The position numbers were made by a program, and so were the translations under genes. Below, piece by piece: positions 22,575-64,000 of a stretch of DNA of 64,000 nucleotides (position 1 is the stretch's first letter; every line of letters begins with the position of its first letter). Origin of the DNA: an uncultured Gammaproteobacteria bacterium (lineage in GTDB: Bacteria; Cyanobacteriota; Vampirovibrionia; 2-02-FULL-35-15); assembly GCA_964602915.1 (NCBI GenBank), contig CAZRTB010000002.1:86301-150300 (forward strand), read 5' to 3'. The notes beneath the pieces were generated by a model. It had not been told where the DNA came from and did no database searches. It saw only the letters and a program-made list of their open reading frames with translations.

Positions 22575-22597
22575 GGGTTAGATTATAGCGTATCTTA

Positions 22598-24046: not shown

Positions 24047-24132
24047 TTTAAGTATATTTATTATACTGCTTAATTTTTTATTGATATTTAAACTTTATTA
24101 GTGCAAAAAGGCATACATATTACTTGTTTAAG

Positions 24133-38756: not shown

Positions 38757-38780
38757 GAATAATAATATAGCATTTAATTG

Positions 38781-41742: not shown

Positions 41743-42297
41743 ATGTTAGATGAATTTAATAAGGATTTTAAAAATGTATTTAATGGTAATCCGCTAACGG
41801 TATTACAGAGATACATTTTTTTAACTATATATGGAATATTTAAATATCTTCCAACACCAATCGGTGATATTTTGAGAGCTGTTTTTTTAAAGCTATTTTT
41901 GAAAAAAATAAATACAATTTGGATAAGAGAAGGTGTAACATTTCACTTTCCTGAAAATATTTCTATGGGAAAAAGTATGGTTGCTGAATTTGTTTATTTT
42001 AATGGATATGGTGGAATTGAAATTGGAGATAAAGTTTTAATAGGTGCAAATAGCATGTTCTTTTCTCATGATCATAATTTTAGTGATATTACAAAACCCA
42101 TATGGCATCAGGGGCTAACAAAAAAACCTATAGTTATAAAAGATAATGTTTATATAGGGTGTGGGGTAACTGTTTTAGGAAATGTAACTGTAAATAGTGG
42201 ATCAGTAATTGGTGCTGGTAGTGTAGTAATTGAAGATGTTCCTGAAAATTCTATAGTAGCTGGAATTCCTGCTAAAGTGATAGGAGAGAGATCTTAA
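41743..42297 (+). CDS. Hexapeptide-repeat (LbH) acetyltransferase, WbbJ/LacA/maltose O-acetyltransferase-like
   Basis: Hexapeptide repeats IGDKVLIGANSMFF and IGCGVTVLGNVTVNSGSVIGAGSVV, with the conserved SHDHNF region. Confidence 0.7.
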   Translation: MLDEFNKDFKNVFNGNPLTVLQRYIFLTIYGIFKYLPTPIGDILRAVFLKLFLKKINTIWIREGVTFHFPENISMGKSMVAEFVYFNGYGGIEIGDKVLIGANSMFFSHDHNFSDITKPIWHQGLTKKPIVIKDNVYIGCGVTVLGNVTVNSGSVIGAGSVVIEDVPENSIVAGIPAKVIGERS

Positions 42298-44618: not shown

Positions 44619-44694
44619 TAACTTTAAGTTTCTTTTTGAGAAGGATCTTTTTATTACGTAAGTTAAATCCTAATATATAAGTTACATTATTAAT

Positions 44695-51505: not shown

Positions 51506-51538
51506 TTTTTATTAAGTATAGTTGATCAAGTTTAACTT

Positions 51539-53458
51539 TTAAAGACCATTTGATCTTAGTTTGTATAACTCAACGAAGTGTTCATATTTTTTCATGTCAC
51601 CTTTTAAAAAATAAAAATCTCGCAAGTGGGTTATGACATCAATATTGTAAGGAAAATAATCAAAGGCTAGAGTTAAATATTTTTCTGCATGAGCAAAATC
51701 ATTTTTTAAAATGTATAATTCTGAGAGTGGAATTAAAATAAGAGGACTTATATTCTTTTCTCGTGCTTTTTCAAGAAAGGTTATAGCCTTATCGTTCATA
51801 TTTCCTATTTTTAATAGTTTGGTGTAAAAAGAGACAACAGTAGGATCATAAATAGGATTTCTGTCTAAATGTTCTGAAATTATTCTATATGCAAACCGGA
51901 CATCATTTTCCAATCCCATTCTAGAAAATGCAATTAGATATCCAGCTTTTGTTTGTTTAGTTGTAGGATCAAGCCCATAAAGCTTTAAAATCTCTGGAAT
52001 TGGTTTGCTTTTTTCTCCTTCTAAGCTTGAATAATAACTACTTAAAAGCTGAATTGAAGAATTTATTAGATTTAGTCCTCTTATTTGATTATTAATATTA
52101 GATCTGTCATCTAAAAGCAGGCTCCCGGTAAATTGCAATCTTAAAGCTTTTAATAAAACATCTGAGTTTGATATGTAGGCAGAATAAAAGAGTTTTTGAC
52201 TATTACTCCAGTCTAATGTTCTGAAATAGGTTCTTGTTGATAAAACTAATAGTAGGGTAAGCATAACAGAGAAAACAATTTTATCTTTTTTTAAATTTAA
52301 TATTAAATGTAAAATTCCCAGTATGAAAAATAAGCTGGGAAGATAAAGATATCTTTCGCTACACAAACAATACGTGGGTGAGATTGTTTGTAAAAATGGA
52401 GCTAAAGAAATTATAAAGGTAGATAATGGCAGTGAGATATTTAAAAATAAATCTTTTCGATTAAAAATACTAAAGACTATAAATCCAATTAAGCACATTG
52501 AAAATAAAATACAAAAAATTGCATAAATGTGAAAATAACTATCTGCAAAAAATACATTACCAGATTGGTCTATCGTTAATTTTAAGGGGAAAAATAATAG
52601 TTTTATGTAATGTATAAAAATTTGAGGTGAAATCCAAAAGACTCTTTCAATTACTAATCTGTAGTTTTGAAAATTGTTTGAAAAATTGTGTTTAGTTGGC
52701 GACAGTATGAAATAAATACAAAATAATATAATTGAAATAAACAATGGAGATACTTTTAAGAGCGCTTGTTTAATAGAGGTATTAAGATTGGTTTTATTCT
52801 TTAAATCCTCATATAGAACATATGAAAATAAAATAAAAGGTAATGTGACTGCATATTCACAGATGAATAACGTTATTGAAAACATTATAAACAGTACAAG
52901 AGGATTTCTGTTTTTTAAAAACAAATAAAAAACAACCATATATAAAAAATAGGTTAGAAGCGCCGCCCAATTTGTAGCAAAAACCACTGACTCTACATTT
53001 ACAGGATGTAAAGCCCACATCAGAGTTAAAGATGATGATATGAAAAGACCCTTTTTCTTATCAATTTCATATTTTTCAATAAAGCTATTTAAAAGTAAAA
53101 ATAAAATATAAGTATTTCCTGCGTGAAGTATAAGTGATAATAAATGGTAATTAAAAGGATCCTTTTTAAATAAATATTGAACAAATAAGGTTATTAAATT
53201 ATTTACAGGATCACATCTTAAGTTTGAAATGCTTGTGTAGAATGTGTTGCTAGCCTCGAAATAATTATTTATTCCAAATGTTTTAATGAAAGTAAAAATC
53301 CTGCTGAAATTATTCAGGATAGGTATAACAGCCTCATTGTAAATAAGTTGCTCATCAAAATTTCTCCATGGATATACCAATGTATGAAAGTAAAAAATAA
53401 AAACAATTAATGGTACTGCTATATAAAAGCTTTTTTCGTTTTTTAGAATATTTCTCAA
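51539..53458 (-). CDS. TPR-repeat-containing GT-C (PMT_2/TMTC-like) membrane glycosyltransferase, paralog 3 of 5
   Basis: WRNFDEQLIYNE, FEASNTFYTSISNLRCDP, YHLLSLILHAGNTYILFLLL, ERYLYLP and RTLDWSN, plus C-terminal TPR-like repeats. Confidence 0.5.
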   Translation of the reverse strand: MRNILKNEKSFYIAVPLIVFIFYFHTLVYPWRNFDEQLIYNEAVIPILNNFSRIFTFIKTFGINNYFEASNTFYTSISNLRCDPVNNLITLFVQYLFKKDPFNYHLLSLILHAGNTYILFLLLNSFIEKYEIDKKKGLFISSSLTLMWALHPVNVESVVFATNWAALLTYFLYMVVFYLFLKNRNPLVLFIMFSITLFICEYAVTLPFILFSYVLYEDLKNKTNLNTSIKQALLKVSPLFISIILFCIYFILSPTKHNFSNNFQNYRLVIERVFWISPQIFIHYIKLLFFPLKLTIDQSGNVFFADSYFHIYAIFCILFSMCLIGFIVFSIFNRKDLFLNISLPLSTFIISLAPFLQTISPTYCLCSERYLYLPSLFFILGILHLILNLKKDKIVFSVMLTLLLVLSTRTYFRTLDWSNSQKLFYSAYISNSDVLLKALRLQFTGSLLLDDRSNINNQIRGLNLINSSIQLLSSYYSSLEGEKSKPIPEILKLYGLDPTTKQTKAGYLIAFSRMGLENDVRFAYRIISEHLDRNPIYDPTVVSFYTKLLKIGNMNDKAITFLEKAREKNISPLILIPLSELYILKNDFAHAEKYLTLAFDYFPYNIDVITHLRDFYFLKGDMKKYEHFVELYKLRSNGL

Positions 53459-53460
53459 AT

Positions 53461-55503
53461 TTAACTACCACCAAATATCTTTTTATAAGCTAATTCTATT
53501 TCTTTTGTACTATCATCACTGGGATATTCGTATAAAAGTTTATGTAAAATTAAATCTGCTTTTGATTTATTTCTCATAATTATATAAACAATTCCTGCCT
53601 CTTGTAGGCTTTGAATATCATGGGTTCTAAGTCCATGAAGATATGAGAAATAAGCAAAACGCTCAGGCTGATTTTTAATTTTATATATTCTTACTAGTCC
53701 ATAGAGTGTTACAGAATCAAATGGAAACATTGAGAATGATTGTCGAAGATATTCCTCTGCTTTATTTAAATCTTTGTATTTGTATTCAGTAACATCTGCT
53801 AAAGAAAGGAATAATATTGGATTTAATTTTTTTTGATTTAAAGACTTGATTAAAACCTCTTCTGCTAAATCTATTCTCTTGGTTAAAAATAAAATAGGGT
53901 AATAAAAATTCAATATTAAGCTGTCAGTAACTCTTAGATTTCTTATCTGAGGAGTTAAAAACTCTTCAATTTTATAATTATCTTTATTTAAGCTACTTTC
54001 ACACAATGAAATCAAAAAAGCAGTTTTTGACTTTAAAGTTTTATTGTCTAATCCGTAATATTTAATTACAAGTGGGGCTGAATCGTTCTCATTTATTGAG
54101 CTAAAATAATTTTTAGTTTGCAGTAAAACTTTCTTAATTATTTCCTTTGCTTCTTCAGGGCTATCTTTTTTAATAGAGTCTGCAATCATTTTATGTCGCA
54201 AACTTCTTACAATAGGAGATCTGGTTGTTTCTATGCTTGATGAAAAAAGTGATTGAGTATCTTTCCAGTCTAGAGTTCTTATGTATGTTCTTGTTGAAAG
54301 AATAAGAGTTGTAATTATCAATAAAATTGAGGCAATCTTTAAATTGTTTCCTGAAATTATTCTGGATAAACTGAAAATAAGAAAAAATGTCGGTAGATAT
54401 AAATATCTTTCACTTCCTAAATTATAAATAGGAGAAATAATATGTGTGAATGGTAATAGTGCTATGAAAAATGGGATTATTAAATTTCCAATTGAGTTTA
54501 TTGTTTTATTCTTCGTGAAAAAAGAACATGCAGATATTACAAATAAAAGTATTGTTGAAAGTGTACAAAAAATACTGTATGGGGAAAATAGTGTCTTTGA
54601 AATGTGGATAACACTTGTTTGGTCAATGGATAAATTAATTGGGAAAAAGATTAAAGAAATATAATTAAATATTACTTGTGGAGAAAGCCAGAAAATCCTT
54701 TCAAATGTTAAAGGTAAGAAAGGGAAATCCTTATCATTAAAAGTTAGACTAATATTTGAAGATGTCTTTGATAAGAAGAAAACAATTAAAAATATTAACA
54801 GTGTAATGAAAAGAGGAATTGTTTTTTTGTATGAATTACTTGATTTAGTATATGTATAAAAAAGAACCATAAAGGGTAGTGTTACTGAGTACTCCACTGT
54901 AAAGCATGATATTAAAAGCAGTAAGCCTACGATGATTTGATCCATGAAACCTTCATTTTTATTAGTTAGTGATAAATAAAAGGTGAAAATATACATAGAG
55001 CAAGTGAGAACTCCTCCCCAGTTTGTAGAAAGTAGTATTGTTTCTGAATTAACAGGGTGTAATGCCCATAGAATTGGTAATATTACTGAAATAACCTCTT
55101 TGTATATATTGGAATTGTCATTAATATAAAATTTTCTTATTAGTAAAAAAAGAATTATAGAGTTGAATATATGTAGTGATAGTGAAAATAAATGATAGTA
55201 AAAAAAGTTCTTTTGAAATAAAAATTGAATACAAAGAGCTAATCCATTACATACAGGGTCACATCTTAAGTTTGAGATGCTTGAGTAAAATGGGTTACTT
55301 GCCTCAAAATAATTTCTAAATCCAAAATTACTTATAATTTCTAACAGTTCATTAAAATTCCTGGCTATAGGGAGTAATGTTTCATTGAAAATAAGTTCTT
55401 CGTCATAGAATTTCCATCCGTAATTAAGAGTATGAAAATAAAATATAAAAATAATTACAGAAATAACTATTGAGAGAGCTATACTTTTTTTATTTACCAT
55501 CAT
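53461..55503 (-). CDS. TPR-repeat-containing GT-C (PMT_2/TMTC-like) membrane glycosyltransferase, paralog 2 of 5
   Basis: WKFYDEELIFNE, FEASNPFYSSISNLRCDP, YHLFSLSLHIFNSIILFLLI, ERYLYLP and RTLDWKD. It is 2 nt from the upstream paralog. Confidence 0.5.
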   Translation of the reverse strand: MMVNKKSIALSIVISVIIFIFYFHTLNYGWKFYDEELIFNETLLPIARNFNELLEIISNFGFRNYFEASNPFYSSISNLRCDPVCNGLALCIQFLFQKNFFYYHLFSLSLHIFNSIILFLLIRKFYINDNSNIYKEVISVILPILWALHPVNSETILLSTNWGGVLTCSMYIFTFYLSLTNKNEGFMDQIIVGLLLLISCFTVEYSVTLPFMVLFYTYTKSSNSYKKTIPLFITLLIFLIVFFLSKTSSNISLTFNDKDFPFLPLTFERIFWLSPQVIFNYISLIFFPINLSIDQTSVIHISKTLFSPYSIFCTLSTILLFVISACSFFTKNKTINSIGNLIIPFFIALLPFTHIISPIYNLGSERYLYLPTFFLIFSLSRIISGNNLKIASILLIITTLILSTRTYIRTLDWKDTQSLFSSSIETTRSPIVRSLRHKMIADSIKKDSPEEAKEIIKKVLLQTKNYFSSINENDSAPLVIKYYGLDNKTLKSKTAFLISLCESSLNKDNYKIEEFLTPQIRNLRVTDSLILNFYYPILFLTKRIDLAEEVLIKSLNQKKLNPILFLSLADVTEYKYKDLNKAEEYLRQSFSMFPFDSVTLYGLVRIYKIKNQPERFAYFSYLHGLRTHDIQSLQEAGIVYIIMRNKSKADLILHKLLYEYPSDDSTKEIELAYKKIFGGS

Positions 55504-57581
55504 CTTTTTAATTTTGATTTTAAAAATTCAATTCTTTTTAATGTTCTACTAGCGCTTGCATCGTCATTTAGCTTTATGTATGCTGAATATGCATTCTCTA
55601 AGTCTTCTATAGAATGATGTCTTAGCCCATACACGTATGAAAATTTAGCAAAGTTTTTTAAGTCACCTTTTAACCCATAAATTTTTGTCAGAACTAAAAG
55701 AGTAAAAACATCATATGGAAAATATTTATATGCAAACAATGCATGTTCTTCTATTTGATTTAAATCTTTATATTTGATTTGAATGAGATCACAATACGGA
55801 TAAATTAACCTTGTTGAATAAGGGTATAGTTCAAGTGCTTTTTTAAAAACCACTTCAGCAGAATCAATTTGATTGTCGAAATAAAGTGTTGATGCATAGA
55901 ATGCTAACCCTGCTGAGTCTAGCTTTGATAGATTATTTACAAAAGGTTTAATGTTTTTCAGCGCTAATTTATGATTTTCATTTGAAAGGGAAAAAATAGC
56001 TTGAGAAAGCAGATATCCGGATTTACAAAGGAAGCTTTCAGGATCAATTCCATAGCTCTTTAATATGTGAGGAGTCTTATCTTGATATTTTTCTTTCTCA
56101 GATTGGTAAAACTGAACTGCTAGATTAAGTTCATCAATTGCTTTCAATTGGTATTCAATTGGGACTTCTCGTTCTGGATACTGTGAAAAAATCTTATCTT
56201 GTGGTGTTAATCCTTTATATCTTATTGCTTTAAAAAGATGATTGTTTGTGGATTTAATTACTGACTCATATAAGGATTGGCTGTTTTTCCAGTCTTGTAG
56301 CCTGAAATATGACCTTCCTCCAAATATTAAAACCATTGTTATGAGAATGAAAGTTATTACCTTTGATTTTCTTGAATAATAGTTTAAGTAATGAGATAAG
56401 CCAAATATGAATATAAAAGAAGGGAAGTATAAGTATCTTTCACTAGCAAAGTTGTAAATAGGGGCAATTATCTGAGAATAAGGAACTAAAGCAATAAAAA
56501 ATAAAGATATTGTCAGGAAGAAAAAAATTAACTTTGACTTATTTCTAACGATTGCATATAAAGAAGTCAGGAATATAGCTGTCATAAAAACAATACAAAA
56601 GATTGCATAAGGATCATAAATTGCTTTCCCGAATCGTACTAGATTAGTTTGGTCTATAGAAAGTTTTAATGGGAATAACAGAAGCTTCAAAAAGTGGAAA
56701 AGGACTTGAGGAGAAAGCCAGAGTATTCTTTCGAAAATTAATAACATAGAAGTTTGTGATGTGAAATTTACTTTTGTATTAGAAAAAATAAACAATATAA
56801 TATAAATAAAAGAAGCACTTATAAAAGGAATAATTGAAAAGATAGACTTTTTAACTGTTTCTAATAAACCACATTTATTTTTTGAAAGATAAAGTATTGA
56901 AGTGTAAGAAATAAGTACTAAAGGTATAAAAAAGTGAAATTCAGCTGTTAATAGAGCAAAGGAATAGGTGAAAAAGATAAGAAGATTCTTTAACAAGGAG
57001 ATTTTTTCAAATTCATAGCTTTTTAAGAATGAATCTAAATATAAATAAATTGCTATAAGGCTAAATGTATAGCTTAAAACTATATTTGCATTTGTTAGAA
57101 GTAAAACAGATTCTATATTACTAGGATGAATTGCCCATAATAGTACTAATAATGAACATATAACTAATTTTTCAATATGAACATTTGACTTTAGATTTAG
57201 TACCTTAGAAGTTAATATATAAAGAATAGAAGCATTAATTAAATGAAGTATAAGACTGTATAGGTGATAATTTACTGGATTCTTTTTAAAAAGGACTTGA
57301 ATTAATAGCTGTAAGAAATTTCCAAAAGGATTACACCTCAAGGAGACTATATTTGAATAAGTGGTATTTCCTGCTTCAAAATGTTGTTTTAATCCAAGCC
57401 ATGAAATCAATTCAAACATCTCTGAAAAACTAAAACATACTGGAAGGTATGTTTCTTTAAAAGGCATAAGTTCATCATAAGATCTAACCTTAAAAAAAAC
57501 TGATGGTAGAAAAAATAAAAATATAACTAGAATTGTTAAAAACAAAGTCAAATATATTTTTGGTGTTTTGCTCATAAACAA
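55500..57581 (-). CDS. TPR-repeat-containing GT-C (PMT_2/TMTC-like) membrane glycosyltransferase, paralog 1 of 5 (first gene of the operon)
   Basis: VRSYDELMPFKE, FEAGNTTYSNIVSLRCNP, YHLYSLILHLINASILYIL, ERYLYFP and LQDWKNS. The ATGA overlap with the next gene (55500-55503) indicates translational coupling. Confidence 0.5.
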   Translation of the reverse strand: MFMSKTPKIYLTLFLTILVIFLFFLPSVFFKVRSYDELMPFKETYLPVCFSFSEMFELISWLGLKQHFEAGNTTYSNIVSLRCNPFGNFLQLLIQVLFKKNPVNYHLYSLILHLINASILYILTSKVLNLKSNVHIEKLVICSLLVLLWAIHPSNIESVLLLTNANIVLSYTFSLIAIYLYLDSFLKSYEFEKISLLKNLLIFFTYSFALLTAEFHFFIPLVLISYTSILYLSKNKCGLLETVKKSIFSIIPFISASFIYIILFIFSNTKVNFTSQTSMLLIFERILWLSPQVLFHFLKLLLFPLKLSIDQTNLVRFGKAIYDPYAIFCIVFMTAIFLTSLYAIVRNKSKLIFFFLTISLFFIALVPYSQIIAPIYNFASERYLYFPSFIFIFGLSHYLNYYSRKSKVITFILITMVLIFGGRSYFRLQDWKNSQSLYESVIKSTNNHLFKAIRYKGLTPQDKIFSQYPEREVPIEYQLKAIDELNLAVQFYQSEKEKYQDKTPHILKSYGIDPESFLCKSGYLLSQAIFSLSNENHKLALKNIKPFVNNLSKLDSAGLAFYASTLYFDNQIDSAEVVFKKALELYPYSTRLIYPYCDLIQIKYKDLNQIEEHALFAYKYFPYDVFTLLVLTKIYGLKGDLKNFAKFSYVYGLRHHSIEDLENAYSAYIKLNDDASASRTLKRIEFLKSKLKR

Positions 57582-57999
57582 CTTAAGCTTATATTTATTT
57601 TTTGTATTACTTTATTTTTTATTTATATTTTTTTTATAATATGGGGGATTATTTTTAGTAAATATCTTTTTTACCTATTAGGAAGTCTCCTAAACTTTTT
57701 AAAACTATGGATAGGTAATGAACTAGGAGAGAAAAAGAAACCCTATATATAATGAACAATAAAGCAGTCAAAACGTGTATTACGATATGTGAGTATTTCG
57801 AGTTAAATAAAATTGTTGTTAACAGGAACTTTATGATTGTGTTGAAGTTCATTCAAACTCGTGTATTCTTTAACTTGGCGTGTTAAGTACAAATCTTTTT
57901 AGTTTTATTTTATGGAATTAAAAAGAATTCGGCCTTAACACAAAAAAGTTATATAAAGGTTAAGTAACATTAACTAAAAATTTAAAGGAGTAGAAATTA

Positions 58000-60900
58000 A
58001 TGAAATTGATTTCATCGAAAAAGACTAAACGCCAGATAGCGTTATTGTTTGTTTTCGCATTCATGCTTTCAAATCTTCTGTCATTATTTGGCCCAAGTGC
58101 CAATGCGGCAGTAACGATTACAGCCCCATCAGCTGGAACCTGTTTTCAACACACAGGAACCACTGCAAGCGGTGCACTAGTAACGGTTTATAATATAGGT
58201 ACAGTTCAAGTTTCCTTAACAGCATCAGAAGTCACACCTGGTGATGATGCTGCAGCTACAGATGGTATTACAGCTGGCGTAGCAAGAGCAACACTTGCTG
58301 GTAGTATTTCAGCAGCTTCAGATGTAATCGGAAACGTATTTAGTATTGTTCCTCCAACAGGTACAAACTTTGTTATCGTTCCTGGTTTTGCAGATACAGC
58401 GGCTACTAACCATTTAGCAGCTGCTAATGCTTCAATCTCAAACACTTCATCAAGTGATACTTCAGCATCAGTTGATAGTACATTAGGTGTAAGCGTAGGT
58501 GTTGTAACAACAGGTACATCTGGTATCGGTAGAGCTATCGTTGCAATTGCAAGAGATGCAGGTGACGAAGTTTATCCTAAATCAGGTACATCAACAAATA
58601 CAGTTACAGTTTCATTCAATGGATTAGGTATTGCTATACCACCATCCGGAGATGGTTCATTAAGTGGTACATTACAAGCAACATTTGATTCAACACCTCC
58701 ATCAGGAATCGGTGTATCAGGTGGTGCTTCAGCAGCAGCAGTTGCTTCAGGTATTCCTGGCTTAAGTGGAACACTTAATCTTTGTACAGTTACAACAACC
58801 GCTAACCAATTAGAAGCAGTTTCAGATGCAGATGATGATACTACAGATCTTTATGATAAAACAGCATCATCCTCAAACTTAATTGCTCTTAGCCAAATTG
58901 GTTCATTTACATCATTAACAGCTCAAGATTTAGCTACAAATACAGCTACACCAAGAGTTGACCTTGAGCCAATCCTTATTAGAGGTACTACAGGTACAGG
59001 TACAGCTACAAGAGACCAAGTTTTCGCAACTGGTGAACTCTTAAGCGATATCGATACAAATGCAGAATCTCCATCTACATCAGCTCTTGATTTAGCGACA
59101 GCATTTGGTAATAACGTTATTACACCAATTACTATTGCATTCTCTGATGACAATGCTACAGCAACAACAACACTTAATGCAGTAGACATTATTATTGAAA
59201 ATTCAACTGCTCCTACAACAGCAGCTGGTTTCAGTGCAACACAATCATCAAGATTTGGTTTCTTGGGAGCTCTTAGAGCCGCTCAAATCGCTGGTGGTAA
59301 TACAGCTTCAGTAACAGCATTCGTAGCTGGTTCGCACTGGGGTATTACATCAAACAGAGGTGATACAGCAGTAGTTCAAGAAGCTAACCGTGCTAACGCT
59401 AACAACACCGTATTAAATGGTAGTTTTGGTGGCTTAAATGCAAACAATACAGAACCATTTAATGACACTTTTGTTGACTTAAGAATTAACTGTGATGGAT
59501 CAGCTCCAGTTGCAGGTTGGTTTGCTATCGGTAACGGATCAAATGCAGGCGCACAAGCTGCATTCGGTACTACAGCAAATACAAATCAATTGCTTGCTAG
59601 ATCACAAGCAGGTTCAAAACTACTTGTTAGTAGCTTAAGCAATTTCTACACACAAAATCTTACAAACATTGCAGGTACAACACCAGGAACTACAGTAGCT
59701 GGAGACTTCAATCCAACTCCATTCTTAGGTGGTGCTAATGCAATTGTTGTTGACTCAACACTTAGAAATAATGCTCTCTTATATGCATCATGTGCTAATA
59801 ACACATTAACCTTATTCCCAATTCAGGATGCTTTCGATGCTACAAGAGATATTCTTGCTATTACTCCTAAGTTGACAGTCTCAAATATCAGCAATACATT
59901 GTCATCTGATACAAATATCGTTGCTCAAATTTCTGGTAATAACTTAAGTGGTACAACAACACTTAACTTAACCAAGTTACTTGGAGCAATTGGTACATCA
60001 GGTGGTCAAACCAGCACACTTGCAGCAGCTACCGGAGTCGGACTTTCAGAAGCCGCTCAGTTAGCAATTAACTGTTCAAGTGGTAGCTCATCAACAGTAA
60101 CTCTTAGCAGTGTAACCGCTACATCACTGGATGCTACAGTAGCAGCAGCATGTACAAGTGGTTCTATTGCAACCCCTCCAGCACTCTTTAAGGGTGGTGC
60201 GCCAAATACAGTTTCTGGAACTACAGTAATTGATGGTTCACCAGTTGTTCAGAGTGAAGGCAGAGGTGTTTTACTCAAAGAGTTAAGCGCAACTGGTTTC
60301 AGCGAATTAGTTAACAAAGTCGGTGGTGGTTCAACCGGAACTGTTATCGAAGTACAACTCCCAAGTGGATGTGATGTAATCGATGATAGAGACGATAACA
60401 ATACAGCAGCAGCATCAGGTGGTGGTGGTAACGATGTAACTATGTTTACACTTACTTCAACTGCAGGTGTTTCAGTCGCTGCAACAGGTATTGGTACTAC
60501 TCCAGCTGATTTAACCGTAGTAAATGCAGTCATTCCTTCAACAGGAGCTGACCCAGCATTATTACACTTCGGTTTCACCTCAGCTTCAGGTGTTGGTACT
60601 GATGCAACTACAACAGACGCAGTTCTTTTAAGACTTGATGCTCAAGACATCTTCTGCCCTTCAACAGTTGCAGATGGTGCTTTAACAGGTCTTGTAAGAG
60701 CACAAAACAAAACAGTAAGCCCAACAATAACTGAAAACTTAGGATCAGTAAGTTTCGGTACAGCAACAAGTGCGGCAACATTCTCAATTGCAGATGATGT
60801 AGTAACCTCAACAAAAGGTGAAACTTCAACTAATACAATGATTGGTACAACACCAAGATTGTCAGGTGGAAGTGTAACTACAGCAAATCCATTTAAGATT

Positions 60901-62013
60901 GTTGAAAACAATGCAAGATCTTTCCCAATTGGTGGAAGAGTTTCAGCACGTAACTTGGATCCAGAAAACACAGTTCTTTCCGCAGTAATTACTAAGGGTC
61001 AACTCTGGGTAGTACCAGCAGCTTCAACAGCATTTTCAACTGCTCCAGCAGCTGCAGACGTATCCTTCTCAGATAACTCAATCGTAATTGATGGAAATCC
61101 TTACATCGTTACATCAGCAACAGTAGATCCAAACCCACCTTTAGGAACATTAGTAATTCCTATTAAGAAAGGTTCTGGAGATCCTACTGTTAACACAACT
61201 ACAGTTACAGTAAGAAATCTTAAACTAGGCGCGGCTACATCAAGTACAACTGATTTAGTTGCATCAGTTCAGTTCTTCTTACAAGATGCAGGTGTAGTAG
61301 TTAACACACCAGGTATTGCATCTGGTAACAGTGCTACAACTCCTACACTCTTTACACCATATGTTAGAGGTGGAACCAAAGCAGGTACTCAGCTAAATAC
61401 AGCTGGTGTCCAACTTGGAACTGGTTCATTAGCAAATTCATTGCTAACTTCCAGATTAACTACTGAAGGTGCTCCTCAACTTAGCCCATTTGCAACCGTA
61501 GTATCATCAGCTAAAAATGCAGATGCTTCAAAGATTACTGTTTCAGCAACAGCTGTAGCAGGATCAAGCGGTTCAACTTCAACAGATAATACAGTAACCG
61601 TAACAGGTGCTGCAGGATCAGTTGACGGTGGTGCTCAAGTTGTTGTCACTACAGGTAGTGGAACCACTACATATGATTCTGTAACAGTAGTTTCATCTAC
61701 TGATGGATCATTCACAGCTAAGCTCAGAGGTGATTGTGCAAGTCCAGCTACAAGTGTTTCAGTTACAGTTGCAGAATCAGTTAGTGGAACAGCCACTACA
61801 TCTGTAAGTAAGACAGCACTGTGTAATGGAAGTACAGGTGATACAGCAGACTCAGTATTTACTGAAATTGCTGGAGCAGACGGTACTGCAACAATTACTG
61901 AAGTGCTTAACTACATCACTTCAAAAGGCGGTTTATCAGCAGTTATTTCAGCAGGTGGAGCAACACTTGATGGAGTAATCAAGGCTGTTAAATCAGTTCT
62001 TGGACTTAGCTAA
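58000..62013 (+). CDS. Giant secreted Thr/Ser/Ala/Gly-rich low-complexity surface protein (putative S-layer or mucin-like glycoprotein), 1337 aa
   Basis: SD aaaggag 8 nt upstream and a signal peptide MKLISSKKTKRQIALLFVFAFMLSNLLSLFGPSANA. The rest is dominated by T/S/A/G/V with very few charged or aromatic residues. There is no RTX GGxGxD motif or LPxTG motif. A strong terminator follows. Confidence 0.65.
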   Translation: MKLISSKKTKRQIALLFVFAFMLSNLLSLFGPSANAAVTITAPSAGTCFQHTGTTASGALVTVYNIGTVQVSLTASEVTPGDDAAATDGITAGVARATLAGSISAASDVIGNVFSIVPPTGTNFVIVPGFADTAATNHLAAANASISNTSSSDTSASVDSTLGVSVGVVTTGTSGIGRAIVAIARDAGDEVYPKSGTSTNTVTVSFNGLGIAIPPSGDGSLSGTLQATFDSTPPSGIGVSGGASAAAVASGIPGLSGTLNLCTVTTTANQLEAVSDADDDTTDLYDKTASSSNLIALSQIGSFTSLTAQDLATNTATPRVDLEPILIRGTTGTGTATRDQVFATGELLSDIDTNAESPSTSALDLATAFGNNVITPITIAFSDDNATATTTLNAVDIIIENSTAPTTAAGFSATQSSRFGFLGALRAAQIAGGNTASVTAFVAGSHWGITSNRGDTAVVQEANRANANNTVLNGSFGGLNANNTEPFNDTFVDLRINCDGSAPVAGWFAIGNGSNAGAQAAFGTTANTNQLLARSQAGSKLLVSSLSNFYTQNLTNIAGTTPGTTVAGDFNPTPFLGGANAIVVDSTLRNNALLYASCANNTLTLFPIQDAFDATRDILAITPKLTVSNISNTLSSDTNIVAQISGNNLSGTTTLNLTKLLGAIGTSGGQTSTLAAATGVGLSEAAQLAINCSSGSSSTVTLSSVTATSLDATVAAACTSGSIATPPALFKGGAPNTVSGTTVIDGSPVVQSEGRGVLLKELSATGFSELVNKVGGGSTGTVIEVQLPSGCDVIDDRDDNNTAAASGGGGNDVTMFTLTSTAGVSVAATGIGTTPADLTVVNAVIPSTGADPALLHFGFTSASGVGTDATTTDAVLLRLDAQDIFCPSTVADGALTGLVRAQNKTVSPTITENLGSVSFGTATSAATFSIADDVVTSTKGETSTNTMIGTTPRLSGGSVTTANPFKIVENNARSFPIGGRVSARNLDPENTVLSAVITKGQLWVVPAASTAFSTAPAAADVSFSDNSIVIDGNPYIVTSATVDPNPPLGTLVIPIKKGSGDPTVNTTTVTVRNLKLGAATSSTTDLVASVQFFLQDAGVVVNTPGIASGNSATTPTLFTPYVRGGTKAGTQLNTAGVQLGTGSLANSLLTSRLTTEGAPQLSPFATVVSSAKNADASKITVSATAVAGSSGSTSTDNTVTVTGAAGSVDGGAQVVVTTGSGTTTYDSVTVVSSTDGSFTAKLRGDCASPATSVSVTVAESVSGTATTSVSKTALCNGSTGDTADSVFTEIAGADGTATITEVLNYITSKGGLSAVISAGGATLDGVIKAVKSVLGLS

Positions 62014-62030
62014 TAGCTAAGAGAAATTTA

Positions 62031-62060
62031 GAGGCCCTGTTCTCAGGGCCTCTCTTTTTT
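62031..62060 (+). terminator. Rho-independent terminator after the 1337-aa surface protein gene
   Basis: Perfect 9-bp stem gaggccctg (62031-62039) / cagggcctc (62044-62052) with loop ttct, followed by tctttttt. Confidence 0.8.
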
Positions 62061-62165
62061 CAAAAAAATTATTATATTTAGACTATTAGTCGAAAAAAAT
62101 TAGATAAAAAAGTAAAAAGTTTCCAATAATTAGTTTTATCGAAGGAAAAGGTGGAGGAAAATAAA

Positions 62166-63575
62166 ATGGTCAAAAGAGCAACTTCATTAGTGTTAGCATT
62201 GTTGCTTTTAACTGGTATCTATTCAAATATTCCAGCTAAAGCACAAGTAACAGCAACACCAACACAAGCTGTAATCACAGTTAGTGGTGTGCCAGCTAAT
62301 ACAACAAATCTAGCTGTTGAAGTAACAGTAGATTCTTCAGTTGTTACATTAGGAGGTGCATCAACAAGTGCTTCAGGTGCAATTGCTGCATCAGGAAGTA
62401 ATGGTGTTGGTGTCGTATCAACAACAGGCAGTTTGCCAGATAGTTTTACAATTACAGTAGGTCTTACTGGAGTAGCAGTAGGAACATCTGCAGTTACTCT
62501 TGGTAATGTAAAAGATACCTTAGGATCGTCAGGTGTTGTAATTAGTGGTGTAACAGCGATGGCTGATACAAGTTCAGTAACAGTTGCATCATCATCAACT
62601 ACTACATCATCAACGACATCATCATCAAGTTCAACTGGTGGTGGAACACTTAGTACAGATACATTTACAATAATGGTTACAGGTGAAGCAGTTAAACAAA
62701 CTACAGCACTTAATGTAACATTAGCATTTGCAGATTCATCAATTGCTCAGTTAGATACAACTGGTGTAACAGTTACAGGAAGTGGCATTACACAGTTATT
62801 AACTAATTCAGATTCAGCAACAAGTGTAGTATCAGCAGTATGGAGTGGAACTTCAACTGATGGTACCGTTACAATTACTGGAAAATTAAAACCAGGAACT
62901 ATGGGTGGAACTACAACAGTAGGAATAGCTAAAGTTGAAGCTGCAGGTGGAACAGACATTACTTCAAATGTCGTAGCATCAGTTGACCCAACTAGCATTA
63001 CTAATGGTTCTGGTTCATCATCAAGCGGAGTCGGTTCATTTACATTAATCGGACCATCTTCAGCTACTGGACCAGGAAAAGTAGCAGTTTCATTCTCAGC
63101 AACTGGAGCTTCTAGTGATATTATGGCAACCTTAAATGGTTCTACAGTATCATTCTTTAATGGAAACAGTGTAGGGGTAGCAATTATTGATATCTCAACA
63201 GCTGGTTCAATTCCACTTTCATTAGTAGCAACTAGTGGTGGTTCAAGTGCAACAGTTAATCTTGGTAATATTACAGTTACTCAAGGAACTGGTAAAGCAC
63301 CTAAAGTTAAAACAGCTTCTGTAAGCAACAAGTCTACAGGAACTAAATTAACTGTAACTGGTAAAGCATTTGCTAAGGATTCAACTACCGTAACAATTGC
63401 TCCAACAGATCACTCAGCTACAACAACAAAAGTTAAAGGCACATCAATCATGGCATCTTACTCATCTTCAGAGTGTATACCAAATGGTAGCTTCGTAAAT
63501 GTAAGCACACCAGGTGGTACATCATCTAAGAAGATTACCGTAAGAGGTACCTGTGCTAATAGCTTAGCTCCTTAA
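62166..63575 (+). CDS. Secreted Thr/Ser/Gly-rich low-complexity surface protein (about 470 aa); likely partner or paralog of the 1337-aa protein
   Basis: ATG at 62166 preceded by the SD ggtggagg. The ORF-track start at 62151 is a GTG inside that SD. Signal peptide MVKRATSLVLALLLLTGIYSNIPAKAQ. The body is T/S/G/V/A-rich and includes a poly-Ser/Thr tract SSSTTTSSTTSSSSSTGGG. Confidence 0.6.
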   Translation: MVKRATSLVLALLLLTGIYSNIPAKAQVTATPTQAVITVSGVPANTTNLAVEVTVDSSVVTLGGASTSASGAIAASGSNGVGVVSTTGSLPDSFTITVGLTGVAVGTSAVTLGNVKDTLGSSGVVISGVTAMADTSSVTVASSSTTTSSTTSSSSSTGGGTLSTDTFTIMVTGEAVKQTTALNVTLAFADSSIAQLDTTGVTVTGSGITQLLTNSDSATSVVSAVWSGTSTDGTVTITGKLKPGTMGGTTTVGIAKVEAAGGTDITSNVVASVDPTSITNGSGSSSSGVGSFTLIGPSSATGPGKVAVSFSATGASSDIMATLNGSTVSFFNGNSVGVAIIDISTAGSIPLSLVATSGGSSATVNLGNITVTQGTGKAPKVKTASVSNKSTGTKLTVTGKAFAKDSTTVTIAPTDHSATTTKVKGTSIMASYSSSECIPNGSFVNVSTPGGTSSKKITVRGTCANSLAP

Positions 63576-63600
63576 TAAAGAGCATAGTGTTCTATAAAGA

Positions 63601-63630
63601 GGGGGGCCTTAAAGCTCCCCTTTTTTATTT
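63601..63630 (+). terminator. Rho-independent terminator after the second surface protein gene
   Basis: Stem ggggggc / gctcccc (one G-U wobble), loop cttaaa, followed by ttttttattt. Confidence 0.7.
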
Positions 63631-63732
63631 AATAAGACTATTTATACTCCTGAAATTTTTCTTGGAGAAATATCAGTAAATAATTTTTCACATTTGATAA
63701 AATTTAGTTGTTAAATAAAAGAGGTGTTAATA

Positions 63733-64000
63733 ATGAAAAAAAATCTAGCTTATATTTTGCTTTTGTCTTTAATTTTTAACTTTAATGCATTTAATGCACA
63801 TGCTATTAAAAATACATCAAAGGCATCTGCTAAAAAGCAAGTTGTAGATAATATTACTGAAAAAACTGAAGAGCCAAAAGTAGAACAAAAAACAGAAGTA
63901 AAAGAAGAAGCACAACAACAATATCAACTAGAGGTAACCGTAAAAGATATTCCTAAATCTCAACAAACACTTTTTATACCTATAAAAATAGACACTATGG
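63733..64000 (+). CDS. Secreted protein, N-terminal fragment (continues beyond the right edge of the window)
   Basis: ATG at 63733 with the SD agaggtg. Signal peptide MKKNLAYILLLSLIFNFNAFNAHA, followed by a K/E/Q-rich region. It is truncated by the window end. Confidence 0.4.
   Translation, partial: MKKNLAYILLLSLIFNFNAFNAHAIKNTSKASAKKQVVDNITEKTEEPKVEQKTEVKEEAQQQYQLEVTVKDIPKSQQTLFIPIKIDTM

What the first reader, a model, noticed from the sequence alone, without database searches (positions are those of the whole stretch)
57582..63630. Two giant Thr/Ser/Ala/Gly-rich secreted proteins divergently adjacent to the GT-C array are candidate O-glycosylation substrates (S-layer or mucin-like)
The 1337-aa and roughly 470-aa proteins both have signal peptides. 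They consist almost entirely of T, S, A, G and V, with long runs such as SSSTTTSSTTSSSSSTGGG and almost no charged or aromatic residues. Each gene has a strong SD and its own strong intrinsic terminator, which suggests high expression. The 1337-aa gene shares a 418-bp AT-rich divergent promoter region with the TPR/GT-C operon. Hydroxy-amino-acid-rich extracellular proteins next to PMT-family transferases is the arrangement seen for O-mannosylated proteins in actinobacteria and for S-layer glycoproteins in Firmicutes. A protein of this size and composition in a low-GC cyanobacteria-related genome is not something I recognise.
Basis: partly seen in the sequence, partly recalled or inferred. Interest (0 to 1): 0.75.

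Follow-up and report, generated by a model that had tools for sequence, protein, structure and literature searches.

The report
Melainabacterial surface-coat proteins inside a glycosylation island
Two adjacent genes in an uncultured, non-photosynthetic relative of cyanobacteria encode exported, folded, Thr/Ser/Ala/Gly-rich proteins that look like building blocks of a cell-surface coat, and they sit in a conserved gene island next to five enzymes resembling animal protein O-mannosyltransferases, which makes them plausible but unproven targets for sugar attachment.

Summary
Protein A (58000-62013, 1337 aa) and protein B (62166-63575, 469 aa) are real, conserved genes. Each has a Sec-type signal peptide, a strong SD and its own terminator. 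T+S+A+G+V makes up 59% of A and 68% of B, against 29% in other window genes.

They are not mucin-like. AlphaFold models show chains of distinct beta-sandwich domains. The only long S/T run is an 18-residue disordered linker in B.

Both families have no Pfam, NCBIfam or PDB sequence match. A has only 22 relatives among 1.84 billion proteins. All named relatives come from groundwater Melainabacteria.

In nine genomes the layout is the same: an array of membrane+TPR genes, a conserved ~420-490-bp spacer, then A, B and a third secreted protein C.

Five array genes are remote homologues of PMT_2/TMTC-type GT-C transferases (hhalign 99.9%). They keep the catalytic-loop acidic pair and the ERYLY motif. 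The island also encodes RmlA/RmlB, a polyprenyl-phosphate-sugar-synthase-like GT2 and a flippase-like protein.

Best reading: a lineage-specific surface-coat (S-layer-like) protein set, probably O-glycosylated by its neighbours. Expression, lattice formation and glycosylation are untested.

The parts
58000..62013 (+). Protein A, 1337 aa. The mature form is about 128 kDa with pI 4.3. It is a non-repetitive chain of beta-sandwich domains and the candidate major surface-coat (S-layer-like) subunit.
   Evidence: ORF. There are 39 full-length homologues of 1310-1388 aa at 50-70% identity, with 10 invariant Cys. There are no Pfam, NCBIfam or PDB sequence hits. The AF2 model of residues 37-1236 has pLDDT 74.8 and pTM 0.65 and is nearly all beta. 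Fold matches are only to Ig-like domains of surface adhesins, pilins and cohesins. No internal repeats were found.
58000..58107 (+). Signal peptide of A (residues 1-36), with predicted cleavage ANA|AV.
   Evidence: The sequence shows a basic n-region, a hydrophobic core and an AxA site. The region is conserved across the family. This is a heuristic call; SignalP was not run.
61846..62010 (+). Conserved C-terminal tail of A (about residues 1283-1337). It is an EF-hand-like helix-loop-helix followed by GG-spaced helices ending ...ALGLS.
   Evidence: A profile of the tail matches the EF-hands of Entamoeba CaBP (E 3e-6) and polcalcins (E 4e-3). Some homologues carry a canonical DxDxDGxxxxxE loop, whereas the window copy reads IAGADGTATITE, which is degenerate. 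The function is unknown.
62166..63575 (+). Protein B, 469 aa (an alternative GTG start lies at 62151). It has a signal peptide and four beta-sandwich domains (about residues 28-142, 166-280, 290-373 and 380-460). It is the candidate partner or adaptor of A.
62589..62642 (+). Disordered Ser/Thr linker of B (residues 142-159, SSSTTTSSTTSSSSSTGG). This is the most likely O-glycosylation site.
   Evidence: The S/T run is. pLDDT is below 50 for residues 142-159. The low-complexity linker is conserved in the family consensus.
57582..57999 (.). The 418-bp divergent intergenic region between the GT-C/TPR array and gene A, carrying conserved cis elements.
   Evidence: Sequence. Conserved blocks appear in 4 and then 10 related genomes.
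57679..57694 (.). Conserved palindrome TAGGAAGTCTCCTAAA, a candidate operator.
   Evidence: It occurs once per syntenic locus at a constant distance from A's start, in 8 distinct related loci (10 locus ids, two of them duplicates of one contig). The window has one exact match.
57825..57851 (+). Invariant inverted repeat GGAACTTTAT-N7-TTGAAGTTCA. It overlaps a putative -35 (TTGAAG, 57842-57847); the putative -10 is TATTCT at 57864-57869.
   Evidence: It is present exactly once in each of 10 distinct syntenic loci (12 locus ids) and once in the window. All 8 pairs are invariant, so this is a DNA-level signal rather than RNA covariation. The promoter assignment is my inference.
57870..57943 (+). 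Putative 5'-UTR stem-loop of the gene A mRNA (outer stem GTGTTAAG/CTTAACAC plus an inner stem).
   Evidence: The same long hairpin is predicted in all 10 genomes folded separately, with z between -0.6 and -4.1. Covariance model R1 finds it in 11 of 11 loci. 78.6% of cells are paired against at most 59% when the partners are slid. Five pairs have compensatory changes, which is modest support.
62030..62061 (+). Intrinsic terminator after A.
   Evidence: A 10-bp stem with 7 GC pairs followed by a T-run.
63596..63633 (+). Intrinsic terminator after B.
   Evidence: A 12-bp stem followed by a T-run.
63733..64000 (+). Start of gene C, which runs off the window. It encodes a secreted protein of about 320 aa that is conserved directly after B.
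   Evidence: Sequence. The full gene of 320 aa is present on a contig carrying the identical A and B genes. Orthologues of 293-325 aa follow B in related genomes. Its first domain is weakly related to B's domain 1 (hhalign 62%, E 7e-5).
47001..57581 (-). Five tandem paralogues (726, 774, 639, 680 and 693 aa) of a multi-pass membrane domain plus a C-terminal TPR domain. They are PMT_2/TMTC-like GT-C glycosyltransferase candidates.
   Evidence: ORFs. Only TPR hits appear in Pfam and PDB. Distant homologues pass the Pfam PMT_2 or TMTC_DUF1736 thresholds. hhalign to those homologues gives 99.9% and E 2e-34 over 534 columns, including the membrane domain. All five carry [YF]DE after TM1, HPxxxE and ERYLY, and four of the five match P..L[ST].D at the expected position (the 49181-51505 copy does not). 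Kyte-Doolittle analysis gives 9-13 hydrophobic segments.
42294..47004 (.). Two further large membrane proteins (774 aa on the - strand, 769 aa on the + strand) of a different, DUF2298-type family.
   Evidence: Pfam DUF2298 hits the 774-aa protein. Both align weakly with the array profile at 16-19% identity. Both lack the DE and ERYLY motifs.
25719..26612 (+). GT2 glycosyltransferase of the polyprenyl-phosphate-sugar-synthase type, the candidate maker of the lipid-linked donor.
   Evidence: Pfam Glycos_transf_2. The best NCBIfam resemblances are dolichyl-P-hexose transferase, AglJ, ArnC, PpgS and PgfS, all below their equivalog cut-offs.
36730..40603 (-). RmlB (36730-37701), RmlA (37686-38756), a methyltransferase (38781-39611) and a flippase-like membrane protein (39611-40603).
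   Evidence: TIGR01181, TIGR01208 and TIGR00374 all score above their curated cut-offs.

Best explanation
A and B are exported through the Sec pathway. They fold into chains of distinct beta-sandwich domains and form, probably together with the downstream protein C, an abundant proteinaceous surface coat on a Caenarcaniphilales-type Melainabacterium. A (128 kDa, acidic) would be the main S-layer-like subunit. B and C (cohesin-like and IPT-like domains) would be partner or anchoring subunits.

While the proteins are in the periplasm, the five divergently encoded PMT_2/TMTC-like GT-C enzymes would act on them. The TPR domains would hold the acceptor protein. The membrane domains would transfer single sugars from polyprenyl-phosphate-sugar donors to Ser/Thr hydroxyls. 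The island's GT2 would make those donors from RmlA/RmlB-derived and other nucleotide sugars, and the flippase-like protein would flip them.

B's disordered S/T linker is the most obvious acceptor site. Exposed Ser/Thr on the beta-sandwich domains are further possible sites.

Shown: the gene structure, export signals, fold class, narrow lineage distribution, conserved synteny, and remote homology and motif conservation of the enzymes. Inferred: high expression, surface location, lattice formation, glycosylation itself, and which enzyme acts on which site.
For: - Composition, size, pI and signal peptides.
- Folded, non-repetitive, all-beta architectures. Domain-level matches are to surface adhesins, pilins, cohesins, IPT domains and S-layer Ig-like domains.
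- Ten invariant Cys in A and two in B, consistent with an extracytoplasmic folded protein.
- Expression signals: strong SDs, dedicated terminators, an invariant promoter-region repeat and a conserved 5' hairpin.
- Codon usage of A and B differs from the rest of the window: GGT 0.68/0.55 against 0.34, ATA 0.06/0.12 against 0.35, GGG 0.00/0.02 against 0.12. In relatives only the syntenic A copy shows this bias; the second paralogue does not.
- The layout [GT-C/TPR array]<->[A][B][C] recurs in nine distinct genomes at 53-70% protein identity, with varying paralogue numbers.
- A, B and this GT-C/TPR subfamily share the same narrow distribution.
- GT-C homology and motifs, judged against the motif definitions in PMC7801869.
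- Donor-pathway genes lie on both sides of the trio.
- Precedent: the S. mutans Pgf cluster encodes a GT2, GT-C enzymes and their adhesin substrates together, and it glycosylates Ser/Thr-rich disordered regions (PMC12041528). TMTC and TMEM260 O-mannosylate folded Ig-like and IPT domains (PMC7001481, PMC10214176).
Against: - There are no expression, proteomic, microscopy or glycan data; the organism is uncultured.
- No known S-layer anchoring module was found by Pfam, and no solved S-layer protein is a close fold match. The best matches are adhesin and pilin domains at low Z and TM scores.
- S-layer proteins usually lack cysteine, but A has ten.
- No array gene reaches a Pfam GT-C threshold itself.
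- Synteny is sampled within a single order-level clade, so it could reflect inheritance rather than selection.
- Sequon-type motifs are not enriched.
- The ribosomal-protein reference set was too small to validate the codon-bias argument.
- How A would cross the outer membrane is unexplained.
Confidence: 0.45

Rival explanations
1. A (with B and C) is a surface-layer protein, but it is not itself glycosylated. In this reading the surrounding island builds a lipopolysaccharide O-antigen or another cell-surface polysaccharide. The GT-C/TPR enzymes decorate that glycan or a lipid, as ArnT, GtrC or Emb-type GT-Cs do. The genes are linked because the protein layer docks non-covalently onto that glycan, as Caulobacter RsaA does on its O-antigen (from my own knowledge).
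For: The island has the typical content of an O-antigen or polysaccharide cluster: RmlA/B, GT2, GT4, methyltransferases, a carbamoyltransferase, a hexapeptide acetyltransferase, radical-SAM enzymes, and an LptC-like hit nearby. GT-C enzymes act on lipids and glycans as often as on proteins. A has no long S/T tract. No glycosylation motif is enriched.
Against: The TPR tails and the closest annotated relatives (PMT_2, TMTC_DUF1736, and the JGI name 'protein O-mannosyl-transferase') point to protein acceptors. B's conserved disordered S/T linker is the kind of element known to be O-glycosylated by GT2+GT-C pairs (PMC12041528). Five paralogues next to multi-domain proteins parallels the domain-specific action of TMTC1-4.
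Confidence: 0.25
2. A, B and C are not a lattice. They would form a fibrillar or multi-subunit adhesin or scaffold complex for attachment to particles, partner cells or prey. Cohesin-like modules in B and C would bind other proteins, and A would project from the surface.
Confidence: 0.2
3. The proteins are mucin-like: largely disordered, heavily glycosylated polypeptide brushes.
For: The composition is rich in hydroxy-amino acids. B contains one poly-S/T tract.
Against: Both model as folded beta proteins with mean pLDDT 75-78. Only 107 of 1200 residues in A and 39 of 469 in B fall below pLDDT 50. Full-length conservation is 50-70% with invariant Cys. There are no tandem repeats.
Confidence: 0.03

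Closest known systems
Streptococcus mutans Pgf protein-glycosylation cluster (PgfS GT2, PgfE, PgfM1/PgfM2 GT-C, and the adhesins Cnm, CnaB and CbpA)
   Same: One locus encodes a polyprenyl-phosphate-sugar-type GT2, several GT-C membrane transferases and their secreted beta-sandwich surface-protein substrates. Sugars are added outside the cytoplasm to Ser/Thr-rich disordered tracts (PMC12041528, PMC5856776). The window's GT2 lists PgfS among its best NCBIfam resemblances.
   Different: PgfM1 and PgfM2 are YfhO-type GT-Cs without TPR domains, in a monoderm, and their substrates are LPXTG-anchored. Here the enzymes are PMT_2/TMTC-like with TPR tails. There are five paralogues, the host is diderm, and A itself lacks a long S/T tract.
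Metazoan TMTC1-4 and TMEM260 O-mannosyltransferases (GT-C plus TPR)
   Same: The architecture is the same: a multi-pass GT-C domain followed by TPR repeats. The acidic pair in the first extracytoplasmic loop and the ERxxY motif are conserved (PMC7801869). Distant relatives of the window proteins pass the Pfam TMTC_DUF1736 and PMT_2 thresholds. Multiple paralogues act on folded Ig-like (cadherin EC) and IPT domains (PMC7001481, PMC10214176), and B's last domain resembles IPT/TIG domains, including those of MET.
   Different: The window proteins themselves miss the Pfam thresholds. Motif M2 (SHKSYRP), M3 (RxD) and the Lys of M4 are not conserved. The donor would be a bacterial polyprenyl-phosphate sugar of unknown identity. 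No activity has been shown.
Tannerella forsythia S-layer glycoproteins TfsA and TfsB (from my own knowledge)
   Same: Two adjacent genes in a diderm bacterium encode large secreted proteins that together form the surface layer and are heavily O-glycosylated.
   Different: TfsA and TfsB carry T9SS C-terminal sorting domains and use the Bacteroidota D(S/T)(A/I/L/V/M/T) motif. A and B have neither: there is no Por_Secre_tail hit and the motif is not enriched. There is no sequence similarity.
Cyanobacterial surface-layer proteins: Synechocystis Sll1951, Synechococcus SwmA, and oscillin (from my own knowledge)
   Same: They are large, acidic, sometimes glycosylated surface-layer proteins in the sister lineage of Melainabacteria.
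   Different: Those proteins are RTX-type, with arrays of Ca-binding GGxGxD repeats, and are exported by type I secretion without an N-terminal signal peptide. A has a signal peptide and a single GGxGxD match. No sequence relative of A exists outside its own clade.
Actinobacterial PMT (GT39) O-mannosylation of secreted proteins
   Different: Actinobacterial Pmt has no TPR tail and is a single gene not clustered with its substrates. The window proteins do not reach PMT or PMT_2 thresholds directly.

Membership tests
S-layer protein (functional class) | Self-assembles into a 2D crystalline lattice that covers the cell. | not testable with these tools
   This needs microscopy or in-vitro assembly.
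S-layer protein (functional class) | Among the most abundant cell proteins, with strong expression signals. | tested here: inconclusive
   There is a strong SD, a dedicated terminator, conserved promoter-region elements and a 5' hairpin. Codon usage is skewed. There are no expression data, and the ribosomal reference set was too small.
S-layer protein (functional class) | Exported, 40-200 kDa, acidic, rich in Thr/Ser/Ala/Gly and hydrophobic residues, and poor in Cys and Met. | tested here: met
   A has a signal peptide, is 128 kDa with pI 4.27, is 58.6% TSAGV and 0.3% Met. One caveat is that A has 10 conserved Cys.
S-layer protein (functional class) | A recognisable cell-envelope anchoring module (SLH, CWB2, LPS-binding N-domain, T9SS CTD). 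| tested here: not met
   Neither A nor B has any Pfam or NCBIfam hit. Novel anchors cannot be excluded.
GT-C glycosyltransferases of PMT_2/TMTC type (the five genes at 47001-57581) | Reaches the Pfam PMT, PMT_2 or TMTC_DUF1736 gathering threshold. | tested here: not met
   No such hit appears at E<0.1 for the four proteins scanned at that cut-off, or at E<0.001 for the fifth (47001-49181); only TPR-class hits are found.
GT-C glycosyltransferases of PMT_2/TMTC type (the five genes at 47001-57581) | Profile-level homology of the membrane domain to bona fide family members. | tested here: met
   The relatives P0199 and P0224 pass PMT_2, and P0217 passes TMTC_DUF1736. hhalign of the window paralogues against those relatives gives 99.9% and E 2.3e-34 over 534 columns starting in the membrane domain.
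GT-C glycosyltransferases of PMT_2/TMTC type (the five genes at 47001-57581) | Acidic catalytic pair (DD or DE) in the first extracytoplasmic loop after TM1, plus the ERxxY motif (M1 and M7 of PMC7801869). | tested here: met
   [YF]DE lies at residues 33-41 and ERYLY at residues 365-385 in all five proteins. Motifs M2, M3 and the Lys of M4 are not conserved.
GT-C glycosyltransferases of PMT_2/TMTC type (the five genes at 47001-57581) | GT-C fold with about 11-13 TM helices, and demonstrated transferase activity. | not tested
   Kyte-Doolittle analysis gives only 9-13 hydrophobic segments.
GT-C glycosyltransferases of PMT_2/TMTC type (the five genes at 47001-57581) | C-terminal TPR domain. | tested here: met
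   TPR_14 is above threshold in 49181-51505, with weaker TPR hits in the others. The profile matches designed CTPR proteins and the PA4667 TPR protein in the PDB.
Mucin-like glycoprotein | A dominant disordered Pro/Thr/Ser region, usually in tandem repeats. | tested here: not met
   The only such tract is an 18-residue linker in B. There are no repeats, and both models are folded.
Cohesin module (B domains 1-2, C domain 1) | Cohesin sequence family (Pfam) and a nine-stranded jelly-roll fold that binds a dockerin. | tested here: inconclusive
RTX/type I-secreted cyanobacterial S-layer proteins | An array of GGxGxD nonapeptide repeats, a C-terminal T1SS signal and no signal peptide. | tested here: not met
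   A has one GGxGxD match and B has none. Both have N-terminal signal peptides.
EF-hand (C-terminal tail of A) | A 12-residue DxDxDGxxxxxE Ca-binding loop between two helices. | tested here: inconclusive
   The family profile hits EF-hand proteins (E 3e-6 to 4e-3), and three homologues have canonical loops. The window copy (IAGADGTATITE) lacks ligand positions 1 and 3. Pfam EF-hand matches are only at E of about 0.07.
Fibrillar adhesin | A stalk of tandemly repeated homologous domains plus an adhesive tip domain. | tested here: not met
   Self-BLAST and all-against-all hhalign of 12 segments of A found no internal repeat. Only domain-level fold resemblance to adhesin Ig-like domains exists.

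The most novel reading that the evidence does not exclude
The five TMTC-like GT-C/TPR paralogues would be a bacterial counterpart of the animal TMTC/TMEM260 system. Each would recognise, through its TPR domain, a particular folded beta-sandwich domain (or the S/T linker) of the co-encoded coat proteins A, B and C, and would O-glycosylate it in the periplasm. If so, this would be the first bacterial case in which TPR-bearing GT-C enzymes have genetically linked, identifiable protein substrates. It would also define a new, lineage-specific glycoprotein surface layer in non-photosynthetic relatives of cyanobacteria.
Probability: 0.15. Interest if true: 0.75.

Novelty: new variant of a known kind. 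Interest (0 to 1): 0.5.

Why it matters
Nothing is known experimentally about the cell surface of Melainabacteria. Earlier genome papers inferred an 'S-layer' only from SLH-type outer-membrane proteins (PMC3787301). A and B are clade-specific orphan families that would be the obvious candidates for the real surface coat, and therefore for antigenic, phage-receptor and attachment properties.

Bacterial PMT_2/TMTC-like GT-C proteins with TPR tails are very common, but I know of no such protein with a defined substrate. This locus pairs five of them with candidate substrates and a donor pathway. That gives a compact gene set that could be rebuilt in E. coli to ask what such enzymes do. It also bears on how the animal domain-specific O-mannosylation systems arose.

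If the proteins turn out to be unmodified, the locus is still a clean example of a new surface-protein family, but an ordinary one.

Tried and rejected
- Pfam and NCBIfam scans of A and B returned nothing.
- Profile searches of the A and B families against PDB sequences returned nothing at E<=10.
- hhalign of B against A showed no homology.
The last 101 residues have no model.
- Foldseek against afdb50 was unavailable.
- A beta-helix architecture was rejected. The model is a chain of beta-sandwiches, and no beta-helix proteins appear among the matches.
- Horizontal transfer as the cause of the GC jump was rejected, because GC3 is as low as or lower than in other window genes.
- N-glycosylation sequons were not enriched: NxS/T was 19 observed against 19.9 expected in A, and 8 against 6 in B. 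The PglB-type D/E-x-N-x-S/T occurs only twice. The Bacteroidota O-glycosylation motif is also not enriched.
- Rfam found nothing significant in 57000-64000.
- RNAalifold on the MAFFT alignment of the upstream region recovered only the invariant DNA palindrome, not the UTR hairpin. A hand-specified structure plus a covariance model gave modest support.
- I aligned A's C-terminal half with P0042-44 expecting paralogues of that half. They turned out to contain two copies of A's N-terminal domain instead.
- The idea that A's tail is a dockerin matching cohesin-like B and C was not supported. The tail is only EF-hand-like, there is no dockerin hit, and complex modelling was not possible.
- Cluster look-up gave no names or accessions for the window's own proteins.
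- A literature search for Caenarcaniphilales metaproteomics found nothing usable.

Full report
**1. What is in the sequence**

The two ORFs are real and lie where the finding places them. Protein A is 58000-62013 (+, 1337 aa). Protein B is 62151(GTG)/62166(ATG)-63575 (+). Homologues of B start MVKKA..., so the ATG at 62166 (469 aa) is the likely start.

Four paralogous genes of 639-774 aa lie head to tail on the minus strand up to 57581. This leaves the stated 418-bp AT-rich gap before A. A is preceded by AAAGGAG nine bases before its ATG. B is preceded by GGAGG eight bases before its ATG. Each gene is followed by a GC-rich hairpin and a T-run, at 62030-62053 and 63596-63625.

T+S+A+G+V makes up 58.6% of A and 68.2% of B, against 29.1% in twelve other genes of the window. 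The local rise in GC (0.40-0.42 against about 0.27-0.31) comes from that composition. Third-position GC is 0.17 in A and 0.12 in B, at or below the range of the other window genes (0.16-0.25), so the genes are native.

- Charged residues are 11% and 8.5%, and aromatic residues are 4.3% and 2.6%. That is not 'almost none'.
- The long S/T run exists only in B (residues 142-157).
- A has no S/T run longer than five.

Both N-termini have the basic, hydrophobic and AxA pattern of Sec signal peptides (ANA|AV in A, AKA|QV in B). These regions are conserved in the families. This is a heuristic reading; no dedicated predictor was available.

**2. The proteins are conserved, folded and lineage-restricted**

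A has 39 full-length homologues of 1310-1388 aa at 50-70% identity, with ten invariant cysteines. B has 65 homologues of about 453-520 aa at 46-71% identity, with two invariant cysteines. Every named homologue is a 'hypothetical protein' from Candidatus Melainabacteria. A genome scan returned only groundwater Melainabacteria or 'Ca. Caenarcanales' assemblies of about 34-35% GC.

Neither family matches Pfam, NCBIfam or any PDB sequence. The two are not related to each other. An exhaustive HMMER pass of A over 1.84 billion representative proteins found only 22 hits. All are the same family, fragments of it, or two sister families from the same clade.

Neither protein has internal sequence repeats. 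Mature A is 128 kDa with pI 4.3. Mature B is 42 kDa with pI 5.8. 'Mucin-like' is therefore rejected. 'Large, acidic, non-repetitive, beta-rich exported structural protein' is what the data show.

**3. Conserved neighbourhood**

Nine distinct genomes, counting the window, have enough upstream flank to judge, and all share one order. Two to five or more membrane/TPR genes lie on the minus strand. A spacer of about 420-490 bp follows. Then come A, B and a third secreted protein C of about 300 aa.

In the window, C starts at 63733 and runs off the end. A contig with identical A and B shows it is 320 aa. It is followed by a DegT-type aminotransferase and a PglF/CapD-type dehydratase, as in the relatives. 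C's first domain is weakly related to B's first domain.

One genome also has a second full-length copy of A elsewhere, without B and without an array.

Upstream, the window between about 20 and 47 kb is a glycan island. It encodes:
- an AsnB-like amidotransferase and two radical-SAM enzymes, one with a B12-binding domain;
- GT2, GT4, methyltransferases and a carbamoyltransferase;
- RmlB and RmlA, a flippase-like protein, a SPASM radical-SAM enzyme, a hexapeptide acyltransferase and two DUF2298-type membrane proteins.

So A, B and C lie inside a glycosylation island, not just beside one.

**4. Are the neighbours GT-C enzymes?**

Not by direct annotation. Pfam gives only TPR-class hits, and PDB sequence matches cover only the TPR part.

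A profile of the window paralogues does, however, reach proteins outside the clade. Some of these are named 'protein O-mannosyl-transferase' by JGI. Two of them pass Pfam PMT_2 and one passes TMTC_DUF1736. Profile-profile comparison with those relatives gives 99.9% probability (E 2e-34) over 534 columns, including the membrane domain.

The five genes from 47001 to 57581 all have an [YF]DE pair just after the first transmembrane helix, an HPxxxE motif and an ERYLY motif; four of the five also match P..L[ST].D at the expected position. These correspond to the catalytic DD/DE motif in loop EL1, the DUF1736 loop and the ERxxY motif defined for TMTCs and shared with ArnT and Pmt1 (PMC7801869). Other TMTC motifs (SHKSYRP, RxD, the Lys of KE) are not kept.

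The two genes at 42294-47004 are a different, DUF2298-type family. The GT2 at 25719-26612 most resembles polyprenyl-phosphate-sugar synthases: dolichyl-P-hexose transferase, AglJ, ArnC, PpgS and PgfS. All of these score below their equivalog cut-offs.

A complete route is therefore plausible: nucleotide sugar, then lipid-linked sugar, then flipping, then periplasmic GT-C transfer. No step has been demonstrated.

**5. Signs of high and regulated expression**

The spacer contains elements conserved across genomes whose proteins are only about 55-65% identical:
- A palindrome, TAGGAAGTCTCCTAAA (57679-57694), occurs once per syntenic locus.
- An invariant inverted repeat, GGAACTTTAT-N7-TTGAAGTTCA (57825-57851), is present once in each of 10 distinct related loci and once in the window. 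It overlaps a plausible -35/-10 pair, TTGAAG-16-TATTCT. That promoter reading is my own.
- A stem-loop of about 70 nt (57870-57943) folds the same way in ten genomes despite sequence differences. With a covariance model, 78.6% of cells pair against at most 59% when partners are slid, and five pairs show compensatory change. This is only modest support.

A and B also use codons differently from the rest of the window: more GGT, TTC, AAC and CAC, and far less ATA, GGG and AGG. In relatives the syntenic A copy shows the same skew, while the second paralogue does not. The ribosomal reference available was too small to prove that this skew marks high expression.

**6. Interpretation**

The best-supported reading is a lineage-specific surface-coat system. 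A would be the major, S-layer-like subunit, and B and C its partners. These proteins would be the probable acceptors for the adjacent PMT_2/TMTC-like enzymes. B's disordered S/T linker is the most obvious site.

Known systems give this weight. The S. mutans Pgf cluster encodes a GT2, GT-C enzymes and their adhesin substrates together, and it glycosylates Ser/Thr-rich disordered tracts (PMC12041528, PMC5856776). Animal TMTC1-4 and TMEM260 use several paralogues to O-mannosylate folded Ig-like and IPT domains (PMC7001481, PMC10214176).

I put about 0.45 on the whole chain. Export and surface or periplasmic location are much more likely (about 0.85). 'True 2D S-layer' and 'glycosylated by these enzymes' are each roughly even odds.

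The main rival (0.25) is that the island builds an O-antigen-like glycan, that the GT-Cs decorate that glycan, and that the coat merely docks on it. A second rival (0.2) is a non-lattice adhesin or scaffold complex. The adhesin-like and cohesin-like fold matches and the modular relatives in the same genomes suggest it.

Weak points are the absence of any expression or glycan data, the lack of a recognisable anchoring module, ten cysteines in A, an unexplained route across the outer membrane, and synteny sampled within one clade only.

**7. Novelty and score**

Surface proteins encoded with their glycosylation genes are a known kind of system. S-layer proteins are notoriously lineage-specific, so a new family is not surprising in itself.

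What is new is the combination: two orphan families, five tandem TMTC-like GT-C/TPR paralogues, a conserved regulatory spacer, and a host group whose surface is entirely uncharacterised. I rate it a new variant of a known kind, with interest 0.5.

Noticed in passing
window 57679-57694 and 57825-57851: Two palindromic DNA elements are invariant or nearly so across related genomes, each at a fixed distance upstream of gene A. The second overlaps a putative -35. They look like operator sites for an unidentified regulator of the divergent array/A promoters.
   Followed up: partly
window 57870-57943: A conserved stem-loop of about 70 nt is predicted at the 5' end of the gene A mRNA. It is found in all 11 syntenic loci with a purpose-built covariance model, covariation support is modest, and there is no Rfam match.
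   Followed up: partly
window 61846-62010 (A residues ~1283-1337): The conserved C-terminal tail of A is EF-hand-like. Three homologues keep a canonical DxDxDGxxxxxE loop, but the window copy has lost two ligand positions. It is followed by invariant GG-spaced helices ending ALGLS. This part could not be modelled.
   Followed up: partly
P0042-P0044 (related metagenome proteins, 756-789 aa): A sister family carries two copies of A's N-terminal ~240-residue domain. The copies are separated by long poly-Ser linkers and followed by a Cys-rich region, so that domain is a mobile module in this clade.
   Followed up: partly
L016-L022 (e.g. L017:9767-11866); P0232, P0233, P0236: Secreted paralogues of about 700 aa correspond to A's C-terminal half (residues ~680-1337, 34-40% identity). 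They lie at other loci in the same genomes. Their neighbourhoods were not examined.
   Followed up: no
L003:10001-13933 (= L013; P0035): One genome (nzgw193) has a second full-length copy of A directly after a PurM-like (AIRS) gene, with DNA polymerase I the gene before that. It has no B gene, no GT-C array, no upstream conserved elements and ordinary codon usage.
   Followed up: partly
P0109 (529 aa, on a 2.9-kb ENA contig): The first 278 residues are 48% identical to B, including its signal peptide. The rest is a Sortilin-like region plus a type IX secretion sorting domain. This is either a chimeric assembly or a genuine domain swap.
   Followed up: no
L015 (2.85-kb contig binned as 'Blastocatellia bacterium'): The contig carries an A homologue together with the conserved upstream elements of the Melainabacteria locus. 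The bin assignment is probably contamination.
   Followed up: no
window 26613-28265, 28262-29905 and 33897-36743: Three large ORFs (550, 547 and 948 aa) inside the glycan island have no Pfam or NCBIfam hit. The first two directly follow the polyprenyl-phosphate-sugar-synthase-like GT2.
   Followed up: no
window 20634-25629: An AsnB-type amidotransferase is followed by two radical-SAM enzymes of about 480-500 aa, one with a B12-binding domain. Together with the carbamoyltransferase at 31976-33769 this suggests unusual sugar tailoring (C-methylation, amidation, carbamoylation).
   Followed up: no
L023:6795-9817 (downstream of the window's end, same organism): Directly after gene C lie a DegT-type aminotransferase and a PglF/CapD-type 4,6-dehydratase. 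With the hexapeptide acyltransferase at window 41743-42297, this is the enzyme set expected for a bacillosamine-like 2,4-diamino-trideoxyhexose.
   Followed up: no
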